Shown: positions 3,971-50,211 of the stretch, one piece after another
Position numbering within the stretch: the stretch's first letter is position 1
How the letters are laid out: each line of letters opens with the position of its first letter
Origin: Candidatus Peregrinibacteria bacterium GW2011_GWF2_43_17
GTDB taxonomy: Bacteria > Patescibacteriota > Gracilibacteria > UBA1369 > UBA12470
Assembly: GCA_000999315.1 (NCBI GenBank)
Contig: LCFW01000004.1
Location: 5,540-69,539, forward strand
Direction of reading: 5' to 3'
DNA: 64,000 nucleotides
Notes under the pieces: generated by a model
Told to the model about the DNA's origin: nothing
Databases searched by the model: none
What the model saw: the letters and a program-made list of their open reading frames with translations, nothing else
Translations under genes and position numbers: made by a program

Positions 3971-5140
3971 ATGTCTAAAATACTCATACCCGGATCCAAA
4001 AGCTTAATGGCTCGCGCCTTAATTTTAGCCAGCATCCGCAAAGGCAAAACAGCAATTAATAATCCACTCATCTGCGAAGACTCTAAAAACCTGATAAAAG
4101 CTCTCCGGAATCTCGGCATCAAGATTGAACAAAAAAATAATTCGCAAATCACCGTTTACGGCTTAGGCAAAACACTTAAAGCCCCACCAAAAAACCTAAA
4201 TATTGGTAATTCCGGCACGGCGATAAGATTTTTAATCCCCATACTCGCAACCCAAAATTTCACATCACGCATCACGGGTAACCCACAAATGCAAAAACGC
4301 CCAATGCACGACATCATCGAAGCTCTGCAAAAAATCGGGATAAAAATCACATCGCAAAACGGCTACCCACCGCTAACCATATACGGCAACCCCAAAATCC
4401 ATCCAAAAGAAATTCCGATAAAAGGTAACGTAAGCAGTCAATTCATATCGGGACTTCTGATGGCCGCTCCCCTATTCAACAATCCGAAAATAAAAATCAT
4501 CGGCAACGTCGTCTCCAAGCCTTATATCGAGATTACCAAGGAAATTATCAGAAAATTCGACTCGCCATACACAATCGAAACGGACGCCTCCAGCGCAAGT
4601 TACTTCTTCGCACTTGGAGCCCTGGGCTTCAAAATAAAAGTCTTAAACATATCGAGAAAAAGCTTACAAGCAGACATCAAACTACTCGATTATCTCGAAA
4701 AAATGAACTGCACGATAGAAGAAGACCGCGAAGGAATTCAAGTCATCGGTCCAACGGAATTACAACCACTCGGCAAAGTTAATCTAAAAAACCTCCCCGA
4801 CTCCGCAATGACACTCGCAACTCTTGCTTGCTTCGCAAATGGAAAAAGCACGCTTACCGGACTAAGCAATTTGAGATTCAAAGAAACCAACCGACTTCAC
4901 GCCCTCAAAACGGAACTCTCGAAAATCGGCGCAAAAGTGAAAGAGTTGAAAGACGGACTTTCAATAGAGGGCACAAACAACTTTAAATCGGCAACAATCG
5001 AAACTTATAACGATCATCGAATGGCAATGTGCGCAGGAGTATTAAAATCGCAAATCCCGGGAATCAAAATCTTAAACTCTTCTTGCATAAAAAAGACTTA
5101 CCCCGAGTTTTGGCAAGATTTTGACAACGCCAACAAATGA
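3971..5140 (+). CDS. aroA: 3-phosphoshikimate 1-carboxyvinyltransferase (EPSP synthase)
   Basis: PGSKSLMARALILA, LNIGNSGTAIRFL and RFKETNRL motifs. At 389 aa it is a compact version. Confidence 0.9.
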   Translation: MSKILIPGSKSLMARALILASIRKGKTAINNPLICEDSKNLIKALRNLGIKIEQKNNSQITVYGLGKTLKAPPKNLNIGNSGTAIRFLIPILATQNFTSRITGNPQMQKRPMHDIIEALQKIGIKITSQNGYPPLTIYGNPKIHPKEIPIKGNVSSQFISGLLMAAPLFNNPKIKIIGNVVSKPYIEITKEIIRKFDSPYTIETDASSASYFFALGALGFKIKVLNISRKSLQADIKLLDYLEKMNCTIEEDREGIQVIGPTELQPLGKVNLKNLPDSAMTLATLACFANGKSTLTGLSNLRFKETNRLHALKTELSKIGAKVKELKDGLSIEGTNNFKSATIETYNDHRMAMCAGVLKSQIPGIKILNSSCIKKTYPEFWQDFDNANK

Positions 5141-6300
5141 TTAAAAAGAACCTAACTCTACTCACTCTCATCCATAGCTTCCAAAGATTCGCAACAAACT
5201 CTTTGGGATTTTTCTGGGCCATATACTTCACGCAAATAGGATTAAGCGGGACGCAATCAGGGATACTATTTATGACACTCACTGTAACAGGAGTACTTAT
5301 AACACTTCCCGGAGGACTACTAAACGACAGAATTCCATCAAAAAGAATAATCCAGCTAGGCCTAATTTTAATGATCATCGAATTTCTCACATTAAGCCAA
5401 ACACAATATTTCCCATTCATCCTCGCAATGTTCTTCATAGGAGGCATCGGAACTAATCTGTACAACATTTCAATGGACAGTTTGTTTTACAAAACCTCGC
5501 AAGGAGAACCACCATCAAAAAGAATAAAAACATATGTCGGTTTTTATCTGCTGGGAGCAGGCATTGGAGTTTTATTCAGCGGTAATATCCTCGAATATAT
5601 AGATTTTCAAAAATATTTAATCGTAACGGCGGGACTGGTTTCGATATTACTCATATTATCCCTTTTATTGCCCAGCACGGAAACTTTCAAATTCGAAATC
5701 GAATCTTATAAAAAAGATATTAAAAAACCACACGTCTTACTTTTCATCGCAATAATATTTTCATTCGCGATACACATGGGATCAGAATTCACATCATATG
5801 GACCATTTCTGAAAGAGACTCTCGGCCTCACATTTTCACAGATGGGAGCATATATGGGAACCGCAATAATATGCATGTTCGCAACGGTAAGATTAACCAA
5901 CAGAGCACTTGAAAAAGGTACCGGCATAAAAACAATAATCACACTCGGATTACTCTGTTCCGGCATAGGCTACTTGATAATGCTTATACCAATAATCCCA
6001 ATCTCGCTTGTCGGCAGAATAATTCATGAAGGAGGCGATGCAATGATGTTTGTTTTCTTATACACGGGCGTTTTGGAATTTTTCAAAAAAGAACGTATCG
6101 GAGGCAATTCGGGTTTAATAACGTTAACACAAACTTCTGCTATCGCACTAAGTTCTTTGGTCTTCGGCCCGCTGGGCTCTTCCTTCGGGAACCAAATACC
6201 GATTATAATCGGAGCGATCACAACTTTGCTCGCAATCATTCTACTCAAAGAGTATGAGCACATCTCGGAAAAACATAGTAATAACGGGAATGCGCGGTAG
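5137..6300 (+). CDS. MFS transporter embedded in the aro operon
   Basis: About 12 predicted hydrophobic helices and an MFS loop motif, GGLLNDRIPSKR. ATGA overlap with aroA, and its 3' end overlaps aroK. Confidence 0.8.
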   Translation: MIKKNLTLLTLIHSFQRFATNSLGFFWAIYFTQIGLSGTQSGILFMTLTVTGVLITLPGGLLNDRIPSKRIIQLGLILMIIEFLTLSQTQYFPFILAMFFIGGIGTNLYNISMDSLFYKTSQGEPPSKRIKTYVGFYLLGAGIGVLFSGNILEYIDFQKYLIVTAGLVSILLILSLLLPSTETFKFEIESYKKDIKKPHVLLFIAIIFSFAIHMGSEFTSYGPFLKETLGLTFSQMGAYMGTAIICMFATVRLTNRALEKGTGIKTIITLGLLCSGIGYLIMLIPIIPISLVGRIIHEGGDAMMFVFLYTGVLEFFKKERIGGNSGLITLTQTSAIALSSLVFGPLGSSFGNQIPIIIGAITTLLAIILLKEYEHISEKHSNNGNAR

Positions 6301-40276: not shown

Positions 40277-41742
40277 ATAATCGCGCACTTTTGGTCATTC
40301 TCGACGGTTTCGGATATGGCAAAAAATATCCGGGAAACGCAATTGAACTCGCGGATATGAAATTTGAAAAATCGCTACGCAAAAAATATCCGACGACAAC
40401 ACTAAAAGCCAACGGAGAAGCTGTCGGCTTGCCAAAAGGCTCAATGGGAGGAAGCGAAGTCGGCCATTTCACAATGGGAGCCGGAAGAGTCGTTTGGCAA
40501 TCTTTGGAACACATAAATCAAGAGATTAAAAACGGCAAATTCGCCAAGAACGAAGCAATACTGAAAGCAATCAAAAACGCTAAAAAACACAAATCCGCAC
40601 TTCACTTGATCGGCATGATTTCAGATGAAGGAGTCCACTCTCACATCAACCACCTTTTCGCATGCCTTGAATTGGCGAAAAAACACGGACTGAACAAAAT
40701 TTTTATACACGCGATAACAGATGGCAGAGATGTCCCCGAGAGGTCAGCTCCAAAATACATAAAAAAGATTTTAAAAAAGAAAATCGGCACACTCGCAACA
40801 ATCGTCGGCAGATACTATGCAATGGACCGAGACACAAATTGGGACAGGACAAAAAAAGCTTTCAACCTATATAAAAAAGGTGACGGATTCGAGGAAACAA
40901 ACCCGATACAAGCGATCAAAAACGCCTACGCACGAGGCGACAAAACGGACTACTACATACAACCGATCATGCTCGCCAAAGAAGGGACCATCAAAACGGA
41001 TGATTCGGTAATCTTTTGGAATTTCAGAACCGACCGCGCCAAGCAACTCACCGAACTTCTCGCAAAAGAAAAAATCGCGCTCACGATCTTCGGCGACTAT
41101 TCGAAAAAAGCTGACATCGCCTTCCATTCAACGGAAGTAAAAAACAACCTCGGCGAAACTTTATCAAAAAACAAAATCCACCAACTCCGCATCGCGGAAA
41201 CAGAAAAATACGCACACGTCACATTCTTCTTTAATTCACAAGTCAAAGACCCCTACCCACTCGAAGCAAGAGTTATGATCCCGTCACCGAAAGTCCCTTC
41301 CTACGCGCAAAAACCCGAAATGAGCGCTCACGCCGTCACGACGCGAGTAATCAAAGAAATTTCACGCGAAAAATACGGATTCATCGCACTCAATTACGCA
41401 AACGCGGATTTAGTCGGCCACTCGGGCGAACTCAAACCGACAATCGAATGTTGCAAACATCTGGACAAATGCCTCTCGGAAGTCGTTCCGCAAGCCCTAA
41501 AACACGGTTACGACATCATTCTCACGGCCGATCACGGCAACGCCGATACAATGCTCGCAAAAGACAACTCCCCCAACCCTGCCCACTCATTCAATCCCGT
41601 CCTTTGCACCATCATCTCAAACAAACCGGAGCTCAAAAAACTCCGCCTAAAAAAAGAACGGGGGCTCTCGGTAATCGGTCCAACCGTTTTGAAAATGCTC
41701 GGAGTGGAAAAACCGAAGGAGATGGGAGAGGGGATCTATTAA
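40273..41742 (+). CDS. gpmI: 2,3-bisphosphoglycerate-independent phosphoglycerate mutase
   Basis: LLVILDGFG, GSEVGHFTMGAGR, SDEGVHSH, TDGRD, NADLVGH and ADHGN motifs. ATGA-type overlap with pilD. Confidence 0.9.
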   Translation: MNNRALLVILDGFGYGKKYPGNAIELADMKFEKSLRKKYPTTTLKANGEAVGLPKGSMGGSEVGHFTMGAGRVVWQSLEHINQEIKNGKFAKNEAILKAIKNAKKHKSALHLIGMISDEGVHSHINHLFACLELAKKHGLNKIFIHAITDGRDVPERSAPKYIKKILKKKIGTLATIVGRYYAMDRDTNWDRTKKAFNLYKKGDGFEETNPIQAIKNAYARGDKTDYYIQPIMLAKEGTIKTDDSVIFWNFRTDRAKQLTELLAKEKIALTIFGDYSKKADIAFHSTEVKNNLGETLSKNKIHQLRIAETEKYAHVTFFFNSQVKDPYPLEARVMIPSPKVPSYAQKPEMSAHAVTTRVIKEISREKYGFIALNYANADLVGHSGELKPTIECCKHLDKCLSEVVPQALKHGYDIILTADHGNADTMLAKDNSPNPAHSFNPVLCTIISNKPELKKLRLKKERGLSVIGPTVLKMLGVEKPKEMGEGIY

Positions 41743-41749
41743 GTTTCAA

Positions 41750-43039
41750 CTAATTCCCCAAACTATTCATAAGCAAATTCTGAGGCGTCTCGATAACAAA
41801 CGTGGGAGCGGTATATCCACCTTGCTTATTTTTATGCGTATTCAGTCTACGAGGCATAATTATAGGGGACTCTCTCCCATTACTTGCCAATTCCTCATAT
41901 ATTACAAATCTAACTTGACCCTGAAATCCCAACTTTCGCAATAAATCCTCCCATTGCGCCGAATTTCTCCTTCTCACATTTCCCTCGGGAGAAACAACAA
42001 CTCTTAAAGGCACATGTTTCTCGTCTGCAATTGCCATCGCTTGACGAATCCTGCTCAAATCAAGTGCAAATATGGAAGCAACGCTTTCTTCCGACTTAGC
42101 TACAACCGGCACGCCCTCGGTATCCACACTTGCACCTTTCCCCTTTCGCCTAATACCACTTGGAATACCAACGGGCAACGCCCTACTCCGTAACACATCG
42201 CCACCTGAATCCCTGACAGTAGGAAGGGCTCTGAATTGAGCATCCAGCCTCTCCATCAATGGCTTAAACCGACCGGCATTTCGCAAATCACGTTCCAAGA
42301 TTTCTATTTCGTCTTCAATAATATGCATCTGGGCAACCAAATGCGTAAGCCTATCCATATATCTATTAAAAACAGTCTGGATATCATGATGCAACGAAGG
42401 ACCACGACGAACACAAGGACTATTCTTTACAATTCTCAACGCATAACGAAGAATAATATGATCAACCTCCTTATCCATAAAATTATCAATCGCATCCAGC
42501 AATTCAGCATACTCGCGATCCCTTCGTTCCAATCCTCTATACAAATTACGCAATCTCTTCTCGTTGCGGCCTACAGTACCAAGAACCGCCCTACATCTTG
42601 ACCTTTGCTCGAATAAAACAGCCCTCAGGTGAGCATCAATATCTTTCGTAACCTCGAGATAACGAGCCTCCAAAACCAAAACAGACTCCGGCTTAGTATA
42701 AAAATAATCGGTACAAGCCTCACCTAACATCTCCCTAACTTTTTCAATAACAGCTTGTTCGTCAGGAATCGGAGATTCCAAAACAGCTCTCGCCCCCATC
42801 ATGGCTATCCATCGCTTCATAACAGGAGTACTTTCAGACCCTTCAGCCTTAGTTATCAACTCTGCAAGATCCGCACTCAAAGGTCTAACTTCAGTCATAA
42901 ATATTTTTACAAGAGGCGTACTATAAACACTTACGCGCCCCTTGTCAAGACCCAGGCCTAAAAAACCACCCCGATTCCCCCCCGGGGAGAAAATGCCAAA
43001 TGGCGCTTCTCGAAAAAACACTATTTCCTTACTCCCCAC
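41750..43039 (-). CDS. Arg-rich hypothetical protein (429 aa from GTG 43039; alternative ATG at 42898)
   Basis: A long open frame that overlaps the PRMT-like gene's 3' end by 19 nt. It has a coiled-coil-like centre, unusually high Arg relative to the Lys-rich neighbours, and GGNRGGF near the putative N-terminus. No known domain was recognised. Confidence 0.6.
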   Translation of the reverse strand: MGSKEIVFFREAPFGIFSPGGNRGGFLGLGLDKGRVSVYSTPLVKIFMTEVRPLSADLAELITKAEGSESTPVMKRWIAMMGARAVLESPIPDEQAVIEKVREMLGEACTDYFYTKPESVLVLEARYLEVTKDIDAHLRAVLFEQRSRCRAVLGTVGRNEKRLRNLYRGLERRDREYAELLDAIDNFMDKEVDHIILRYALRIVKNSPCVRRGPSLHHDIQTVFNRYMDRLTHLVAQMHIIEDEIEILERDLRNAGRFKPLMERLDAQFRALPTVRDSGGDVLRSRALPVGIPSGIRRKGKGASVDTEGVPVVAKSEESVASIFALDLSRIRQAMAIADEKHVPLRVVVSPEGNVRRRNSAQWEDLLRKLGFQGQVRFVIYEELASNGRESPIIMPRRLNTHKNKQGGYTAPTFVIETPQNLLMNSLGN

Positions 43040-43881
43040 CTCACATCCACCCCAACCGAATACCTGGTATCCGACTTTATCTCAACAGATACGGTCTCGC
43101 CTTTTTTCGCCACAATCGGCTTCTTTAGAGGCAAAAATATCTGCTCCCAATGAGTCGCTTTCGCAAAAGGACTCGTACTGATTTTCACACCGGGCACAAG
43201 TTCGCAATCCCACCACAACACAAACCCGTAAATTTTCGCATCTTTGGCAATCTTAAACGACCCACTCCCACTCCTCACGCTCTTATTTTTCACCCTGAAA
43301 TCAACCTCATCCCACACAACCCCATCACCCATCACCTCATCCCCCTTGACCGTTTTCACATACATACTACTGCACGCCACCTCTTTAATTTTTGAAAAAT
43401 TCACCCCGTATCCAACCTCATTCCACACATTTATTTCATCAAAAACTCTCGCACTTAAAACAGGCGCCACGAAATAAGTAAGTTTCTGCGGAATCACAAC
43501 TCCGCCCTTCTTCAAAAAACGTTTCGCGTCATTCATCACCTCTATAATATGTTCCTCATAAGCGAAATTTCCCAGAGTCTCCGAAACAACAATATCCGTC
43601 TTCACAGGATTCATCATCTCCGTACTGTAAGTTTCATAAAAACTGCACCCCTTCACCCCGCTATCTTTTGCGATTTTTTTACTCAAAAGCAGCATCGGCG
43701 TCTCGCTCTCGTAAAGATGACACTCCCTCGCCCCCAGCTTCGCCGCCAAAAAACTCAAAAAACCCGTCCCCGACCCGATATCCGAAACCGTACTCCCCTT
43801 CTTAACAACTCTTTTCAAAGCCTCATAAAAAGCCTGATTCCTCCCCTTGTCCCCAATCAACTTTTGCTGAAATTCAATCAT
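43021..43881 (-). CDS. Protein arginine N-methyltransferase (PRMT)-like class I SAM methyltransferase
   Basis: Motif I VSDIGSGTGFLSFLAAKLGA, post-I acidic residue (HLYE), double-E-loop-like DIVVSETLGNFAYEEH, motif III FLKKGGVVIP, and a THW loop (ATHWEQIFLPL) inside a C-terminal beta-barrel-like half. ATG at 43881. Confidence 0.75.
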   Translation of the reverse strand: MIEFQQKLIGDKGRNQAFYEALKRVVKKGSTVSDIGSGTGFLSFLAAKLGARECHLYESETPMLLLSKKIAKDSGVKGCSFYETYSTEMMNPVKTDIVVSETLGNFAYEEHIIEVMNDAKRFLKKGGVVIPQKLTYFVAPVLSARVFDEINVWNEVGYGVNFSKIKEVACSSMYVKTVKGDEVMGDGVVWDEVDFRVKNKSVRSGSGSFKIAKDAKIYGFVLWWDCELVPGVKISTSPFAKATHWEQIFLPLKKPIVAKKGETVSVEIKSDTRYSVGVDVRWGVRK

Positions 43882-44099
43882 GAGCAAAGATTATCAGGAG
43901 TTCCAGGGAACGAGCAACAGAAAATCACGTCTACCTGATCAAACGGAGCTTCCAAAGGCGAACTTGCGAGCCCTCCCTCATGCCGCTCAAAACCAAAACA
44001 CGTAAGCGCAACAAAAGCATCCCTCATCTCTTGAACATCACCTGCCAGCGCAACGAAATCAACATCGGCGGCACAAGATGCCACTCTCAAATCAACCAT
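43878..44099 (-). CDS. Small hypothetical protein (73 aa), possibly the downstream half of a frameshifted ORF of about 108 codons
   Basis: Its TGA overlaps the PRMT ATG as ATGA, which suggests translational coupling. The upstream 39-codon ORF (44093-44212) would join it in frame if one copy of a 7-nt tandem repeat were removed. Confidence 0.35.
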   Translation of the reverse strand: MVDLRVASCAADVDFVALAGDVQEMRDAFVALTCFGFERHEGGLASSPLEAPFDQVDVIFCCSFPGTPDNLCS

Positions 44100-44231
44100 C
44101 AACCATCAACCGACTATCCTTTAATAAACCCACACATCTCGTCAAAGCACATTCGACAAGACGACCATAACTTTCTTTTAAATCATCCTGATTTTCACCT
44201 ACGGTTTCCATAATTTTTTATAAAGGCATAT

Positions 44232-44259
44232 ATTCTACGTATTCCGGCACCCCTGTCAA
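44232..44259 (-). promoter_or_regulatory. Candidate sigma-70 promoter of the PRMT operon (TTGACA-16 nt-TAGAAT)
   Basis: On the minus strand, TTGACA lies at 44259-44254 and TAGAAT at 44237-44232. It sits about 20 nt upstream of the first small ORF ATG (44212). Confidence 0.45.
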
Positions 44260-44319
44260 CCTCTTTCTCCCCTTCAGTCAAGCTTTTATAGTATAATTAA
44301 TTATCATAAATTTGAAAAT

Positions 44320-44514
44320 ATGAGCACTTACGAACAACCGTCTCAGGACAAATTGCTTAATATGTATAATCAGCACGAAGCAAATACTGCGCAAATAAGG
44401 GAAGACGCGGCAAGAGCTATGGCCGAGTTGAATGGTCGAAGAATTGAATTTGAGCTCGCCCTAGAAGGCATATTTACAAAACCGGAAGGTGTTTTTCGAG
44501 ATATTTCCTTCTAA
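44320..44514 (+). CDS. Small hypothetical protein (64 aa)
   Basis: An open frame followed by a 7-bp hairpin (GACTGAA/TTCAGTC, 44521-44541). No motif recognised. Confidence 0.35.
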   Translation: MSTYEQPSQDKLLNMYNQHEANTAQIREDAARAMAELNGRRIEFELALEGIFTKPEGVFRDISF

Positions 44515-44711
44515 AAACGACTGAAGCTTTCTTTCAGTCCCAAGTCACCACATCCGTCATTCGGATTTCCACCTATGGTTTTCGTGCTTTTTTACAAAGA
44601 TCTACGTCTTACATATTCCGACACTTCTGTCAACCTTTTTCTCCCCCCATCCTCAACTTTTCCATTAAAATACTTAAAGTTCCTAGGACCTATATACTCT
44701 TAACTACCCCC

Positions 44712-45737
44712 ATGTACGCAGTCATCCTCGCGGGAGGAGCCGGCACACGCCTTTGGCCCCTCTCAACAGAAGAAAAACCCAAGCAGTTTCACGCTCTCGT
44801 TTCGGATAAAACGATGCTACAGGAAGCTTTTGAACGCGCCTCTTTTTTACCTGCAAGAAATATTTACGTCGCAACTAATGAAAAATATATTCACTTCGTA
44901 AAAGAACAACTCCCCGAAATCCCGGAAGAAAACATCTTGATCGAACCCGCGCTCAGAGACACCGCAACATGCATCGGCTTCGCCGCCGCAATAATCAACA
45001 AGCGAGATCCCGAATCTGTCATGGCAGTGATCTATGCCGATCATATGGTGAAAGACAAAGACGAGTTCGCAAGCAAACTGAAAACAGCGGAAGCCGTCGC
45101 CCTTCGCGACCACACATTGAACATCGTAGAAGTTGAAGCACGCGAACCAAACACGAATTTCGGCTACGTCGAAATCGGCCCCGAAATCGAAAAAATAGAT
45201 GGCAATTCAATAAAATCTTTCAAAAAATTCACAGAAAAACCCGACCTCGCAACCGCAAAAAAATATATAGAATCCGGCAAATACCTCTGGAACACCGGCT
45301 ACTACGTTTGGCGCACATCCGACATTCTGGAAAAATACAAAAAACATCTTCCCGACACATACGCCCGATTAATAAAAATGCAGTCCTCACCCGAAACAAT
45401 CGCCGCGGAATATCCGCAGTGCCAAAAAATCTCCATCGACTACGCAATCATGGAAAAACTCTCTCCTGACGAAGTCAGAATCCTCCCGGCAACCTTGGGC
45501 TGGAGCGACATCGGAACTTGGGAAACTTTATTCAAAGAACTTCATAACAGCGCACCAAACATCGAAAAAGGCGAAATCCAATCCGTAGACAGCGAAGGCA
45601 ACCTCATCTACAACTACGTCAAAAATCAAAAAATAAATCTCCTCGGGATAAAAGATTGCGCAATCGTAAACACGGGGAAAGATATATTGATTTGCCCTTT
45701 GAAAGAGAGCCAAGACGTAAAGAAGCTACAGAAATAA
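44712..45737 (+). CDS. manC: Mannose-1-phosphate guanylyltransferase (nucleotidyltransferase part only)
   Basis: AVILAGGAGTRLWPLS, plus GYVE and a left-handed helix region. At 341 aa it lacks the C-terminal cupin found in bifunctional ManC. Confidence 0.85.
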   Translation: MYAVILAGGAGTRLWPLSTEEKPKQFHALVSDKTMLQEAFERASFLPARNIYVATNEKYIHFVKEQLPEIPEENILIEPALRDTATCIGFAAAIINKRDPESVMAVIYADHMVKDKDEFASKLKTAEAVALRDHTLNIVEVEAREPNTNFGYVEIGPEIEKIDGNSIKSFKKFTEKPDLATAKKYIESGKYLWNTGYYVWRTSDILEKYKKHLPDTYARLIKMQSSPETIAAEYPQCQKISIDYAIMEKLSPDEVRILPATLGWSDIGTWETLFKELHNSAPNIEKGEIQSVDSEGNLIYNYVKNQKINLLGIKDCAIVNTGKDILICPLKESQDVKKLQK

Positions 45738-45738
45738 A

Positions 45739-45999
45739 CTAATAGACCTGATTGTGAGTTCCGACATCAAGCATCACAACCAAGACATAATTGTCGAACT
45801 CTTCGAAAACAACTCGCAAATCACCACCAGCCCAAAAAGCCCTCTTCCCTTCCAGTCGACCATTCAAAGAGTGATTTCTCAGGATCGGATCATACGGATT
45901 CGCAATAAATCTTTTTATCGCGCCATCCACTTTAACTTTCAACTTGTTATCAAGTTTTCGATATCGTTTTTCGAAATTTTTATGGAATTCGAGAATCAT
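45739..45999 (-). CDS. Type II toxin, RelE/YafQ family mRNA interferase
   Basis: 86 aa, with ...NHSLNGRLEGKRAFWAGGDLRVVFEEFDNYVLVVMLDVGTHNQVY fitting the RelE/YafQ C-terminal pattern. It lies 1 nt downstream of a DinJ-like gene. Confidence 0.75.
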   Translation of the reverse strand: MILEFHKNFEKRYRKLDNKLKVKVDGAIKRFIANPYDPILRNHSLNGRLEGKRAFWAGGDLRVVFEEFDNYVLVVMLDVGTHNQVY

Positions 46000-46000
46000 C

Positions 46001-46279
46001 TCATTTCAAACTATCCAAATAAGATTTAGCCTCACTCCACCCTTTCACCTTCTTAACATTTTTCCCAATCCTCGCCTCGCCGGAAGCGTTTAAAATCGCA
46101 ACCTCTTCACCAATAGTCATGCCGTTCTCGGTAACTAACCTAAACGGTATCCCCTTATTAATCACTATTTGCCTCAAATAAACCTTGATAGCGGAACTCA
46201 TATCCATTCCAACATCATCAAGGACTTTTTTCGCAGAATTTTTCGTTTTTTCGTCTATACGAATCTGTATAGTGGACAT
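46001..46279 (-). CDS. Type II antitoxin, RelB/DinJ family
   Basis: IQIRIDEKTKNSAKKVLDDVGMDMSSAIKVYLRQIVINKGIPF is the DinJ ribbon-helix-helix signature. Confidence 0.75.
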   Translation of the reverse strand: MSTIQIRIDEKTKNSAKKVLDDVGMDMSSAIKVYLRQIVINKGIPFRLVTENGMTIGEEVAILNASGEARIGKNVKKVKGWSEAKSYLDSLK

Positions 46280-50134: not shown

Positions 50135-50211
50135 TGGTGCGCCCGGAGGGAATCGAACCCACAACCCCCGGTTCCGAAGACCGGTGCTCTATCCAATTGA
50201 GCTACGAGCGC
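50135..50211 (-). tRNA. tRNA-Arg (anticodon UCG), CCA encoded
   Basis: The reverse complement is GCGCTCG-TA-GCTC-AATTGGATA-GAGC-A-CCGGT-CTTCGGA-ACCGG-GGGTT-GTGGG-TTCGATT-CCCTC-CGGGCGC-A-CCA. It folds as a cloverleaf with one G-U in the acceptor stem and one T-T mismatch in the T stem. Confidence 0.88.

What the first reader, a model, noticed from the sequence alone, without database searches (positions are those of the whole stretch)
41750..44259. Operon encoding a eukaryote-type protein arginine methyltransferase (PRMT) homologue plus an Arg-rich unknown protein, with its own near-consensus promoter
The 286-aa protein (43021-43881) shows the full set of PRMT hallmarks in the correct order: motif I (DIGSGTGFLS), the post-I acidic residue, a double-E-loop-like SETLGNFAYEE, motif III (KKGGVVIP) and the diagnostic THW loop (THWEQ) in a C-terminal beta-barrel-like half. 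PRMTs are overwhelmingly eukaryotic, and bacterial homologues are rare and poorly characterised. The gene is ATGA-coupled to a small upstream ORF. Its 3' end overlaps a 429-codon ORF encoding an Arg-rich, coiled-coil-like protein. That Arg bias is atypical against the Lys-rich neighbours and the region looks locally more GC-rich, which hints at horizontal origin. If the GTG start is used, this protein has a GGNRGGF motif near its N-terminus, which resembles the RGG boxes that PRMTs methylate. A TTGACA-16-TAGAAT promoter precedes the set. This could be a self-contained methyltransferase and substrate (or effector) module.
Basis: partly seen in the sequence, partly recalled or inferred. Interest (0 to 1): 0.65.

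Follow-up and report, generated by a model that had tools for sequence, protein, structure and literature searches.

The report
Bacterial PRMT-like methyltransferase, stand-alone gene
The window encodes a genuine relative of eukaryotic protein arginine methyltransferases, but it belongs to a widespread and already auto-annotated bacterial family, and the proposed operon with an arginine-rich substrate protein does not hold up.

Summary
The 286-aa gene (43021-43881, minus strand) is a real PRMT homologue. It matches Pfam PRMT_C at 4e-21 and eukaryotic PRMT2/1/6/CARM1 chains at about 1e-23. Its AlphaFold model (pLDDT 95) superposes on type-I PRMTs with TM 0.83-0.90. Motif I, both double-E glutamates and the THW His-Trp are invariant across 39 homologues. 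It is not rare: 798 homologues were found, in at least 112 species (Peregrinibacteria, cultured Hyphomicrobium and Solimonas, others), and JGI already labels some of them PRMT1.

- The downstream gene starts at ATG 42898 (382 aa), not at the GTG (429 aa).
- GGNRGGF therefore lies in a non-coding spacer that holds a terminator-like hairpin and a second near-consensus promoter.
- The downstream protein belongs to an uncharacterised coiled-coil family of about 50 clusters. It sits next to a PRMT gene only here and in one close relative.
- The 74-aa upstream ORF is absent from relatives.
- GC content is ordinary. The Arg/Lys contrast with the neighbours is largely a strand-composition effect.

Verdict: a new member of a known, biochemically untested bacterial PRMT-like family, most likely a stand-alone arginine methyltransferase with an unknown substrate.

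The parts
43021..43881 (-). PRMT-like SAM-dependent methyltransferase gene, 286 aa (ATG 43881, stop TAG 43021-43023). It has a Rossmann domain followed by a PRMT beta-barrel with a dimerisation arm.
   Evidence: Pfam PRMT_C 4.1e-21. PDB phmmer hits PRMT2/1/6/8/CARM1 down to 2e-23 over residues 7-269. AF2 pLDDT 95.2. Foldseek top 50 are all PRMTs, TM 0.83-0.90. The ATG start is supported by homologues that begin MIEFQ/MIELQ and by the 286-aa form being in the public collection.
43753..43782 (-). Motif I, DIGSGTGFLS (res 34-43), the SAM-binding glycine loop.
   Evidence: D34, G36, G38, T39 and G40 are invariant in 39 homologues.
43552..43584 (-). Double-E loop, SETLGNFAYEE (res 100-110).
   Evidence: S100, E101, E109 and E110 are invariant. 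E101 and E110 align with the two glutamates of PRMT2 and Naegleria PRMT1.
43141..43155 (-). THW loop, THWEQ (res 243-247).
   Evidence: H244, W245 and Q247 are invariant and T243 nearly so. The loop aligns with THWKQ of PRMTs.
42899..43020 (-). 122-nt spacer between the two genes.
   Evidence: Codon score -0.07, non-coding-like. Homologues start at ATG 42898.
42969..42987 (-). Terminator-like hairpin CCCCGGGGGGGAATCGGGG followed by TGGTTTTTTA. Its G-run is what translates as GGNRGG.
   Evidence: Scan hit. A larger hairpin of about -17 kcal/mol followed by U6 forms, but it is not better than shuffles (z = -0.05), and the structure is weak in L001 and L007.
42920..42948 (-). Second near-consensus promoter, TTGACA-17-TATAGT, 21 nt upstream of ATG 42898.
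   Evidence: 11 of 12 matches. L001 has the same architecture before the orthologue: TTGACA-17-TAGAAT, then ctttgtaaaaatgttttATG.
41750..42898 (-). 382-aa protein of an uncharacterised family. It has an N-terminal helical domain, a long coiled-coil hairpin, a disordered basic linker (about res 225-269) and a small C-terminal alpha/beta domain (270-382).
   Evidence: The profile search finds 49 representative clusters, 35 of them below 1e-10. Alignment A4. AF2 pLDDT 87.5. No Pfam, PHROGs, PADLOC, PDB-fold or BFVD-fold match. It is only 42% identical to the L001 orthologue, against 83-89% for the neighbours.
44232..44259 (-). Promoter-like site TTGACA-16-TAGAAT, 350 nt upstream of the PRMT ATG. 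It is the downstream copy (copy B) of a duplicated promoter/leader.
   Evidence: It lies in a 90-nt direct repeat (44183-44272 and 44557-44646, 77% identical, spacing 374). Both copies align to the single promoter of L001.
43878..44102 (-). 74-codon ORF overlapping the PRMT start by ATGA; probably not a gene.
   Evidence: The region is absent from L001, where promoter and ATG are about 100 nt apart. L007 has a different upstream gene. The ORF is not in the 15-billion-protein collection although the locus is on six contigs. No Pfam, NCBIfam, PHROGs or PADLOC hit. Its codon score of 0.17 is ambiguous.
44320..44514 (+). 64-aa ORF on the opposite strand, inside the roughly 650-nt stretch that the window has and L001 lacks.
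   Evidence: Gene finders call it on six contigs (P0123). No family match. Codon score 0.11 in frame against about -0.27 out of frame.

Best explanation
The 286-aa gene encodes a stand-alone, SAM-dependent methyltransferase with the PRMT catalytic core. It belongs to a bacterial family found throughout Peregrinibacteria and in several other phyla.

**Shown.** It has a Rossmann SAM-binding domain and the PRMT-specific beta-barrel with a dimerisation arm. The catalytic set is invariant across the family: the motif I glycine loop, the post-I acidic residue (E58, nearly invariant), both double-E glutamates (E101, E110), the THW His-Trp (H244, W245), and D11/R14, which align with the conserved Asp and Arg of the helix just N-terminal to the Rossmann domain in solved PRMTs.

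**Inferred mechanism, by analogy with PRMT1.** The enzyme acts as a dimer. The two glutamates hold a substrate arginine guanidinium. The THW loop and D11 help to position and deprotonate it. A methyl group passes from SAM to a terminal nitrogen of an arginine in one or more of the cell's own proteins. The substrate is unknown. The only contextual hint is translation-related: in Hyphomicrobiaceae the orthologue follows rRNA methyltransferase genes and RF2.

**Relation to the neighbours.** The enzyme is not functionally tied to them. The downstream 382-aa coiled-coil protein is a separate, fast-evolving gene with its own promoter. The upstream 74-codon ORF is most likely spurious, a by-product of a lineage-specific insertion and promoter duplication.
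For: **Homology and fold.** Pfam PRMT_C 4.1e-21 and PRMT5_C 2.7e-10. PDB sequence hits are PRMTs throughout the 60 listed, from 2e-23 to 9e-13, over nearly the full length. The AF2 model has pLDDT 95.2 and pTM 0.90. The Foldseek top 50 are all PRMT1/2/3/6/8/CARM1, TM 0.83-0.90.

**Catalytic residues.** D11, R14, N15, D34, G36, G38, T39, G40, S100, E101, E109, E110, H244, W245 and Q247 are invariant in 39 sequences of 48-84% identity to the query, and E58 is nearly invariant. The arm region aligns to Naegleria PRMT1 with only two one-residue gaps.

**Resident gene under constraint.** It is 82% identical to the L001 orthologue, like the neighbours at 83-89%. It nests in a Peregrinibacteria clade.

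**Stand-alone.** The neighbours differ in L002, L004, L006 and L007 and in 15 Peregrinibacteria species loci. A family HMM of the 382-aa protein hits none of the other 86 loci held at that point except L001. Two members of that family have no PRMT within 8-10 kb.

**Separate promoter.** A promoter and an ATG precede the 382-aa gene, and both are conserved in L001.

**Translation hint.** In 22 Hyphomicrobiaceae loci the gene lies 8-57 nt downstream of a SpoU rRNA methylase, with an RlmI-like methyltransferase and RF2 further upstream.
Against: - No biochemical data exist for any member of this bacterial family in the literature I could search. Arginine specificity is therefore inferred from conserved residues only.
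- The protein starts at the second N-terminal helix. It lacks the N-terminal YFxxY helix (the alpha-X lid) that, from my own knowledge of type-I PRMTs, covers SAM. Cofactor binding or regulation may differ.
[quoted passage not shown] A peptide or non-arginine substrate is therefore conceivable.
- Co-transcription with the 382-aa gene cannot be excluded. The hairpin is not better than shuffles, and it is weak in relatives.
- The Hyphomicrobiaceae synteny comes from one family and may simply be inherited gene order.
Confidence: 0.68

Rival explanations
1. One reading: the methyltransferase and the Arg-rich downstream protein form a self-contained enzyme-substrate (or enzyme-effector) module, transcribed together from the 44259 promoter.
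For: The genes are adjacent on the same strand in the window and in L001. The neighbour is Arg-rich (10.7% R) and has a disordered basic linker containing RRKGKG. In L007 a different Arg/Ala/Glu-rich ORFan of 491 aa lies 10 nt upstream of the orthologous PRMT. The terminator-like hairpin is weak.
Against: The adjacency is confined to two closely related genomes, whereas the PRMT family spans hundreds of genomes with other neighbours. Members of the neighbour's family occur without a PRMT nearby. The claimed RGG box is non-coding, the real protein has no RGG and only 2 RG, and only 4 of 43 family members have any RGG. A conserved near-consensus promoter lies between the genes. The 491-aa protein of L007 is not homologous to the neighbour.
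Confidence: 0.07
2. A PRMT-fold enzyme with a different substrate class. It might methylate a peptide or natural product, a non-arginine residue of a ribosomal protein or translation factor, or RNA, rather than protein arginine.
For: Bacterial relatives of PRMTs were described as peptide methylases in secondary-metabolite operons (PMC3417536). Some homologues are auto-annotated as L11 methyltransferase or RNA methylase. The Pfam PrmA model matches the Rossmann half at 1.4e-8. Hyphomicrobiaceae orthologues sit in a row of rRNA methyltransferase genes. The N-terminal lid helix is missing.
Against: The double-E glutamates and the THW His-Trp are invariant; from my own knowledge these are what bind and activate a guanidinium in PRMTs. 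The whole two-domain fold, including the arm, matches type-I PRMTs at TM up to 0.90. The NCBIfam prmA score is 23.6 against a cut-off of 183. No NRPS, dioxygenase or other biosynthetic genes appear among the called genes or recurring neighbour clusters of the loci examined.
Confidence: 0.2
3. A recently acquired foreign gene pair, from a eukaryote or on a mobile island, which would explain atypical composition.
For: The PRMT gene has the second-lowest same-strand codon-usage score of the minus-strand genes compared (0.196 against 0.322 +/- 0.058), and its G3 of 0.44 is the highest. The surroundings show small lineage-specific insertions: a RelB/YafQ pair, a promoter duplication and a 64-aa ORF.
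Against: GC is within 1.3 sd and equals that of the flanking housekeeping genes. Orthologues lie in the same place between manC and iPGM in L001. The gene nests among Peregrinibacteria sequences. It is only 20-25% identical to eukaryotic PRMTs but 37-51% identical to bacterial ones. No integrase, transposase or tRNA lies at the borders; the only tRNA in the window is at 50135.
Confidence: 0.03

Closest known systems
Eukaryotic type-I protein arginine methyltransferases (PRMT1, PRMT6, PRMT8, CARM1/PRMT4, PRMT2, PRMT3)
   Same: Both have a Rossmann SAM domain plus a beta-barrel with a dimerisation arm, and motif I, the post-I acidic residue, the double-E loop and the THW loop. Foldseek TM is 0.83-0.90 and sequence E-values reach 2e-23.
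   Different: Identity is only 20-25%. At 286 aa the protein is the bare catalytic core. It starts at the second N-terminal helix and lacks the YFxxY lid helix and any N-terminal targeting domain (SH3, zinc finger, PH). The host is a bacterium without histones or RGG-rich RNA-binding proteins in the window. Activity and product type (MMA, ADMA or SDMA) are untested.
The bacterial PRMT-like family itself (Peregrinibacteria/Peribacteria, Hyphomicrobiaceae, Solimonas/Nevskiaceae, some Myxococcales, Planctomycetota, Bacteroidota). Sources annotate members as 'methyltransferase domain-containing protein', '50S ribosomal protein L11 methyltransferase' or, at JGI, 'protein arginine N-methyltransferase 1'.
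   Same: Full-length homology at 37-85% identity, with the same invariant residues and the same length class.
   Different: The window protein and its two closest relatives lack the C-terminal tail of roughly 15-30 residues (consensus Q..DM.KG) that most members carry.
Bacterial PRMT-related peptide methylases of secondary-metabolite operons (Aravind et al., cited in PMC3417536) and the predicted, uncharacterised PRMTs of Legionella (PMC10117894)
   Same: These are bacterial relatives of PRMTs that are known only from sequence analysis.
   Different: The window gene is not in a biosynthetic cluster and is not fused to NRPS modules. I did not compare it directly with those sequences.
PrmA, the ribosomal protein L11 lysine methyltransferase
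   Same: Both are class-I SAM methyltransferases. Pfam PrmA matches residues 20-130 at 1.4e-8.
   Different: The match covers only the Rossmann half (PrmA profile positions 153-257 of 296). NCBIfam prmA scores 23.6 bits against a cut-off of 183. The C-terminal half is a PRMT barrel, not a PrmA domain.

Membership tests
PRMT (type-I-like protein arginine methyltransferase) | Class-I Rossmann SAM-binding domain with motif I (D/E-x-G-x-G-x-G) and a post-I acidic residue | tested here: met
   DIGSGTG at residues 34-40, invariant. E58 (LYE) is nearly invariant. Methyltransf_31/25/11 hits.
PRMT (type-I-like protein arginine methyltransferase) | Double-E loop: two glutamates nine residues apart that bind the substrate guanidinium | tested here: met
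   E101 and E110 are invariant in 39 homologues and align with the PRMT2 and Naegleria PRMT1 glutamates.
PRMT (type-I-like protein arginine methyltransferase) | THW loop in the C-terminal half | tested here: met
   T243-H244-W245; H, W and Q247 are invariant. It aligns with THWKQ.
PRMT (type-I-like protein arginine methyltransferase) | C-terminal beta-barrel with an inserted dimerisation arm | tested here: met
   Pfam PRMT_C 4.1e-21, above the cut-off of 27 bits. The model has helices 144-150 and 163-169 inserted between barrel strands. TM 0.83-0.90 to PRMT1/6/8/CARM1.
PRMT (type-I-like protein arginine methyltransferase) | N-terminal alpha-X helix with the YFxxY motif closing over SAM (a feature of type-I enzymes, from my own knowledge) | tested here: not met
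   The protein begins MIEFQQKLIGD, and residues 4-7 align to positions 21-63 of PRMT chains, so nothing corresponds to the preceding helix. Most of the 39 homologues aligned start at the same point.
PRMT (type-I-like protein arginine methyltransferase) | SAM-dependent methylation of protein arginine, and the product type | not testable with these tools
   This needs an enzyme assay. No report on this family was found in the searchable library.
PRMT (type-I-like protein arginine methyltransferase) | Homodimer or oligomer through the arm | not tested
   No multimer prediction was available. The arm is present in the monomer model.
PrmA (L11 methyltransferase) | Full-length match to the PrmA equivalog, including its N-terminal substrate-recognition domain | tested here: not met
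   TIGR00406 scores 23.6 bits against a cut-off of 183.15. Only profile positions 151-256 match.
Operon / enzyme-substrate module with the downstream protein | Conserved gene adjacency across the enzyme's family | tested here: not met
   The adjacency occurs only in the window and L001. It is absent from the other loci that carry PRMT homologues, and from two loci centred on members of the neighbour's family.
Operon / enzyme-substrate module with the downstream protein | RGG/RG-rich target motif in the putative substrate | tested here: not met
   GGNRGGF lies upstream of the true start. The 382-aa protein has 0 RGG and 2 RG.
Operon / enzyme-substrate module with the downstream protein | Single transcription unit with no internal promoter or terminator | tested here: inconclusive
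   A near-consensus promoter, conserved in L001, and a hairpin followed by a U-run lie between the genes. The hairpin is not better than shuffles, and no transcript data exist.

The most novel reading that the evidence does not exclude
In this narrow Peregrinibacteria lineage the PRMT-like enzyme may have acquired a lineage-specific partner. The fast-evolving 382-aa coiled-coil protein (42% identity between genomes whose neighbouring genes are 83-89% identical) would be methylated on arginines of its disordered basic linker. This would be an evolving enzyme-target pair, possibly involved in the episymbiont's interaction with its host cell. More broadly, this bacterial family, with the PRMT catalytic core but no N-terminal lid helix, could be the prokaryotic stock from which eukaryotic PRMTs arose.
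Probability: 0.08. Interest if true: 0.65.

Novelty: new member of a known kind. Interest (0 to 1): 0.33.

Why it matters
Protein arginine methylation is regarded as a mainly eukaryotic regulatory system, and its prokaryotic roots are known only from sequence analysis. This gene shows that reduced-genome CPR bacteria keep a minimal PRMT core with every catalytic residue intact.

The same family occurs in cultured, genetically tractable bacteria: Hyphomicrobium zavarzinii, H. facile and Solimonas variicoloris. Activity, substrates and product type could therefore be tested directly. That would bear on where eukaryotic PRMTs came from and on whether bacteria use arginine methylation on their own proteins, for example in translation.

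The specific claim that made the finding attractive, a self-contained enzyme plus RGG-substrate operon of foreign origin, is not supported. The window itself adds only one more member of a large family that is already auto-annotated.

Tried and rejected
- **Leader RNA.** A permissive Rfam search of 41000-45500 gave only a chance snoU85 hit at E=0.76. A gathering-threshold search of the whole window found only one tRNA. The 350-nt leader is not unusually structured (z=0.22). I therefore rejected a riboswitch or leader RNA.
- **Terminator conservation.** The hairpins in L001 and L007 are weak, and the window hairpin is no better than shuffles. I kept it only as 'terminator-like'.
- **PHROGs and PADLOC.** All four proteins gave only generic methyltransferase-domain hits. 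I rejected a phage or defence-system origin.
- **Fold search for the 382-aa model.** Foldseek against PDB and BFVD returned only generic coiled-coil matches at E>=0.04, and Pfam gave single chance hits across 43 family members. No family assignment was possible.
- **Metagenome scan with the 382-aa family alignment.** The third protein search, with the same alignment, returned only 3 proteins because of the word-index cap. Context could be read for only 2 family members on contigs long enough to show neighbours.
- **Homology between the 491-aa L007 neighbour and the 382-aa protein or the 74-aa ORF.** Only short motif-like matches (LGF.G.V) at E about 1, and no HMM hit. Rejected.
- **The roughly 374-nt unit as a full tandem duplication.** Similarity stops after about 140 nt.
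- **Codon-usage test with a pooled model.** It made both genes look foreign (0.05 against 0.27). This was an artefact of the extreme strand bias and largely disappeared with a same-strand model.
- **RGG-rich candidate substrates among the window's proteins.** None was convincing.
- **Phylogeny with eukaryotic PRMTs.** Not done, because no eukaryotic sequences were available in the sandbox.


Full report
**What is in the sequence**

All the features lie on the minus strand. The mechanical ORF list and the sequence itself confirm three ORFs:
- a 286-codon ORF from ATG 43881 to TAG 43021;
- a 74-codon ORF (43878-44102) whose TGA overlaps that ATG;
- a 429-codon ORF (41750-43039) starting at a GTG 19 nt inside the first gene.

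The promoter-like site TTGACA-16-TAGAAT lies at 44259-44232. The same scan also finds a second, equally good site, TTGACA-17-TATAGT, at 42948-42920. Just upstream of that site is a terminator-like hairpin with a T-run at 42987-42969.

**The methyltransferase is a true PRMT homologue**

- Pfam gives PRMT_C (arginine methyltransferase oligomerisation subdomain) at 4.1e-21 for residues 135-269, PRMT5_C at 2.7e-10, and generic class-I methyltransferase domains for residues 20-135.
- NCBIfam has no specific model. Its prmA equivalog scores 23.6 bits against a cut-off of 183, so the 'L11 methyltransferase' label on some homologues is wrong.
- Against PDB sequences, the 60 listed matches are all PRMTs (PRMT2, PRMT1, PRMT6, PRMT8, CARM1, PRMT3, PRMT5, PRMT7). 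E-values reach 2e-23 over residues 7-269. The two glutamates and THW align residue for residue.
- An AlphaFold2 model built on 39 homologues has mean pLDDT 95.2 and pTM 0.90. Its 50 best Foldseek matches in the PDB are all PRMTs, with TM 0.83-0.90 at 20-25% identity.
- The dimerisation-arm region (two helices, 144-150 and 163-169, between barrel strands) is present and aligns to Naegleria PRMT1 with only two one-residue gaps.
- In the 39-sequence alignment (48-84% identity to the query) these residues are invariant: D11, R14, N15, D34, G36, G38, T39, G40, S100, E101, E109, E110, H244, W245 and Q247. E58 is nearly invariant. From my knowledge of PRMT1, these correspond to D51/R54 (cofactor carboxylate and proton relay), motif I, E100, E144/E153 and H293/W294.

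One type-I feature is missing. The protein, like most of the homologues aligned, starts at the second N-terminal helix and has no YFxxY lid helix.

**The family is neither rare nor foreign to this genome**

The word-indexed search found 798 proteins at E<1e-5. The named ones are from Candidatus Peregrinibacteria, Peribacteria or Patescibacteria, with a plateau at about 50% identity. JGI already calls several of them 'protein arginine N-methyltransferase 1'.

They include Peregrinibacteria and also the cultured Hyphomicrobium zavarzinii ATCC 27496, H. facile DSM 1565, Hyphomicrobium sp. GJ21 and Solimonas variicoloris DSM 15731. MAGs labelled Devosia, Filomicrobium, Nevskiaceae, Myxococcales, Planctomycetota and Bacteroidota also carry it. 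Identity to the window protein is 31-51%.

A rough neighbour-joining tree puts the window protein, with its 82-85% relatives, inside a Peregrinibacteria-dominated clade. Hyphomicrobiaceae form their own clade. A few sequences labelled Proteobacteria sit among the Peregrinibacteria sequences.

Composition gives no sign of an island:
- GC is 0.453 for the PRMT gene and 0.444 for the neighbour, against 0.421 +/- 0.024 for 51 ORFs. The flanking iPGM and manC genes are at 0.450 and 0.453.
- A pooled codon model made both genes look aberrant. This was an artefact. The window has an extreme strand asymmetry at third codon positions: plus-strand genes have A3 0.38 and C3 0.30, minus-strand genes G3 0.29 and T3 0.38.
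- With a same-strand model the two genes score 0.196 and 0.244, against 0.322 +/- 0.058. That is low but within about 2 sd.
- The same bias explains much of the 'Arg-rich versus Lys-rich neighbours' impression. Both neighbours are plus-strand genes, and minus-strand genes have systematically higher R/(R+K).

In the closest relative with context (L001), the gene sits in the same place, in the order manC, PRMT, neighbour, iPGM, prepilin peptidase. The PRMT is 82% identical there, like its neighbours at 83-89%.

**The downstream gene**

The 429-codon reading is wrong, for four reasons:
- A profile search of 1.84 billion representatives found 49 clusters, 35 of them below 1e-10, of proteins mostly 340-490 aa long.
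- In the 43-sequence alignment, every member starts with its own Met opposite ATG 42898.
- NCBI and JGI also call the 382-aa form.
- The 47-codon extension has a non-coding codon score of -0.07, against 0.365 +/- 0.108 for real minus-strand coding pieces.

L001 has the same layout before its orthologue: TTGACA-17-TAGAAT, then ctttgtaaaaatgttttATG. The window has TTGACA-17-TATAGT, then cttgtaaaaatatttATG. The GGNRGGF 'RGG box' is therefore the translation of the G-run of the hairpin in a 122-nt spacer. The real protein has no RGG and only two RG.

The AlphaFold model of the 382-aa protein (pLDDT 87.5) shows four parts:
- an N-terminal helical domain;
- a long antiparallel coiled coil (87-157 and 169-209);
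- a disordered basic linker (about 225-269);
- a small four-stranded alpha/beta domain (270-382), which is the best conserved part.

Nothing similar turned up in the PDB, BFVD, Pfam, PHROGs or PADLOC. My low-confidence guess is that it is a coiled-coil scaffold whose basic linker and C-terminal domain bind a partner.

It evolves much faster than its surroundings. It is 42% identical to the L001 orthologue over 308 aa, with the N-terminal 90 residues not alignable.

**Is there a module?**

The evidence is against one:
- A family HMM of the 382-aa protein hits only the window and L001 among the 87 loci then held, most of which were fetched around PRMT homologues.
- Two members of that family on longer contigs have no PRMT within 8-10 kb.
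- PRMT neighbourhoods elsewhere are unrelated. They include an M23 peptidase with an acetyltransferase and LigA; Hcp with a DksA-type zinc finger; an RlmI-like methyltransferase with gyrase; and, in L007, a non-homologous 491-aa ORFan.

The only recurrent context is in Hyphomicrobiaceae. There the gene lies 8-57 nt downstream of a SpoU-family rRNA methylase, preceded by an RlmI-like methyltransferase and RF2. This is a weak hint towards the translation apparatus, and because it comes from one family it may only be inherited gene order.

**The upstream region**

Relative to L001, the window carries about 650 extra nucleotides between the ancestral promoter and the conserved PRMT 5' leader. The extra stretch contains:
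- a second, 77%-identical copy of the roughly 90-140-nt promoter/leader;
- a 64-aa plus-strand ORF that gene finders call but that has no family;
- the body of the 74-codon ORF.

The last codons of the 74-codon ORF are simply the conserved leader, which L001 also has without any such ORF. The ORF is absent from the public protein collection although the locus is on six contigs. It has no homologue in any locus I held. Its codon score of 0.17 is ambiguous. I consider it probably spurious.

The 44259 promoter is thus the better-matching copy of a duplicated element, 350 nt from the ATG. Whether it is used cannot be told from sequence.

**Literature**

In the searchable library I found no experimental work on this family. 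[quoted passage not shown] Another lists predicted, uncharacterised PRMTs in Legionella (PMC10117894).

**Verdict**

The PRMT assignment is right. The claims of an operon, a substrate, an RGG box, horizontal transfer and rarity are not supported.

The most likely function is a stand-alone, probably dimeric, SAM-dependent protein arginine methyltransferase acting on an unknown cellular substrate. The fold and the catalytic residues are shown; the chemistry and the substrate are inferred.

This is a new member of a known but biochemically untested bacterial family. Interest is moderate to low for this window. The family itself would be worth testing in cultured Hyphomicrobium or Solimonas.

Noticed in passing
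window 1-64000: There is an extreme strand asymmetry at third codon positions. The 30 plus-strand genes average A3 0.38, C3 0.30, G3 0.15 and T3 0.17. The 15 minus-strand genes average A3 0.20, C3 0.12, G3 0.29 and T3 0.38. Cumulative GC skew falls almost monotonically across the whole window. The bias shifts amino-acid usage (Arg against Lys) and can make minus-strand genes look foreign in pooled codon tests.
   Followed up: partly
window 43925-44570 (against L001 4037-4180): The window has about 650 nt that its closest relative lacks, between manC and the PRMT gene. The stretch includes a duplicated promoter/leader (44183-44272 and 44557-44646, 77% identical, spacing 374) and a 64-aa plus-strand ORF (44320-44514) with no known family. 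The upstream promoter copy would read antisense to that ORF.
   Followed up: partly
window 45739-46279 (minus strand): A RelB antitoxin (5.6e-13) and a YafQ/ParE-like toxin (2.2e-6, below the Pfam cut-off) form a pair between manC and the cupin/mannose-6-phosphate isomerase gene. In L001 those two genes are only 82 nt apart, so the toxin-antitoxin pair is another small lineage-specific insertion.
   Followed up: partly
window 44589-44599, 44215-44225, 42904-42914; L001 about 4103-4113 and 5137-5147: A (C/T)TT(G/A)TAAAAA motif follows the -10 hexamer of all the promoter-like sites around these genes, in both genomes. In the window as a whole, CTTTGTAAAAA with one mismatch occurs 11 times against 3.8 expected, and 1 of 100 shuffles reaches 11. 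It may be a shared leader or initiation-region element.
   Followed up: partly
L007 316-1791: In the relative whose PRMT is 85% identical, the gene is preceded at a distance of 10 nt by a 491-aa Arg/Ala/Glu-rich ORFan. That protein has no Pfam hit and no detectable homology to the window's 382-aa protein. A second, different Arg-rich unknown protein next to this PRMT is unexplained.
   Followed up: partly
L025-L080 (Hyphomicrobiaceae loci), upstream of the match at 6001: In 22 loci the PRMT homologue lies 8-57 nt downstream of a SpoU-family rRNA methylase with an MRM3-like substrate-binding domain. An RlmI-like class-I methyltransferase and release factor 2 lie further upstream on the same strand. 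An RlmI-like methyltransferase is also the divergent neighbour in the Peregrinibacteria locus L006.
   Followed up: partly
L004 5230-5556 and 10192-12582: In a Peribacteria genome, a 108-aa SET-domain protein and a 796-aa Ser/Thr kinase lie within a few kb of the PRMT homologue. This is a local concentration of eukaryote-like protein-modifying enzymes.
   Followed up: no
alignment A2, C-terminus: Most family members carry a tail of roughly 15-30 residues after the barrel, with a conserved Q..DM.KG motif. The window protein and its two closest relatives have lost it.
   Followed up: no
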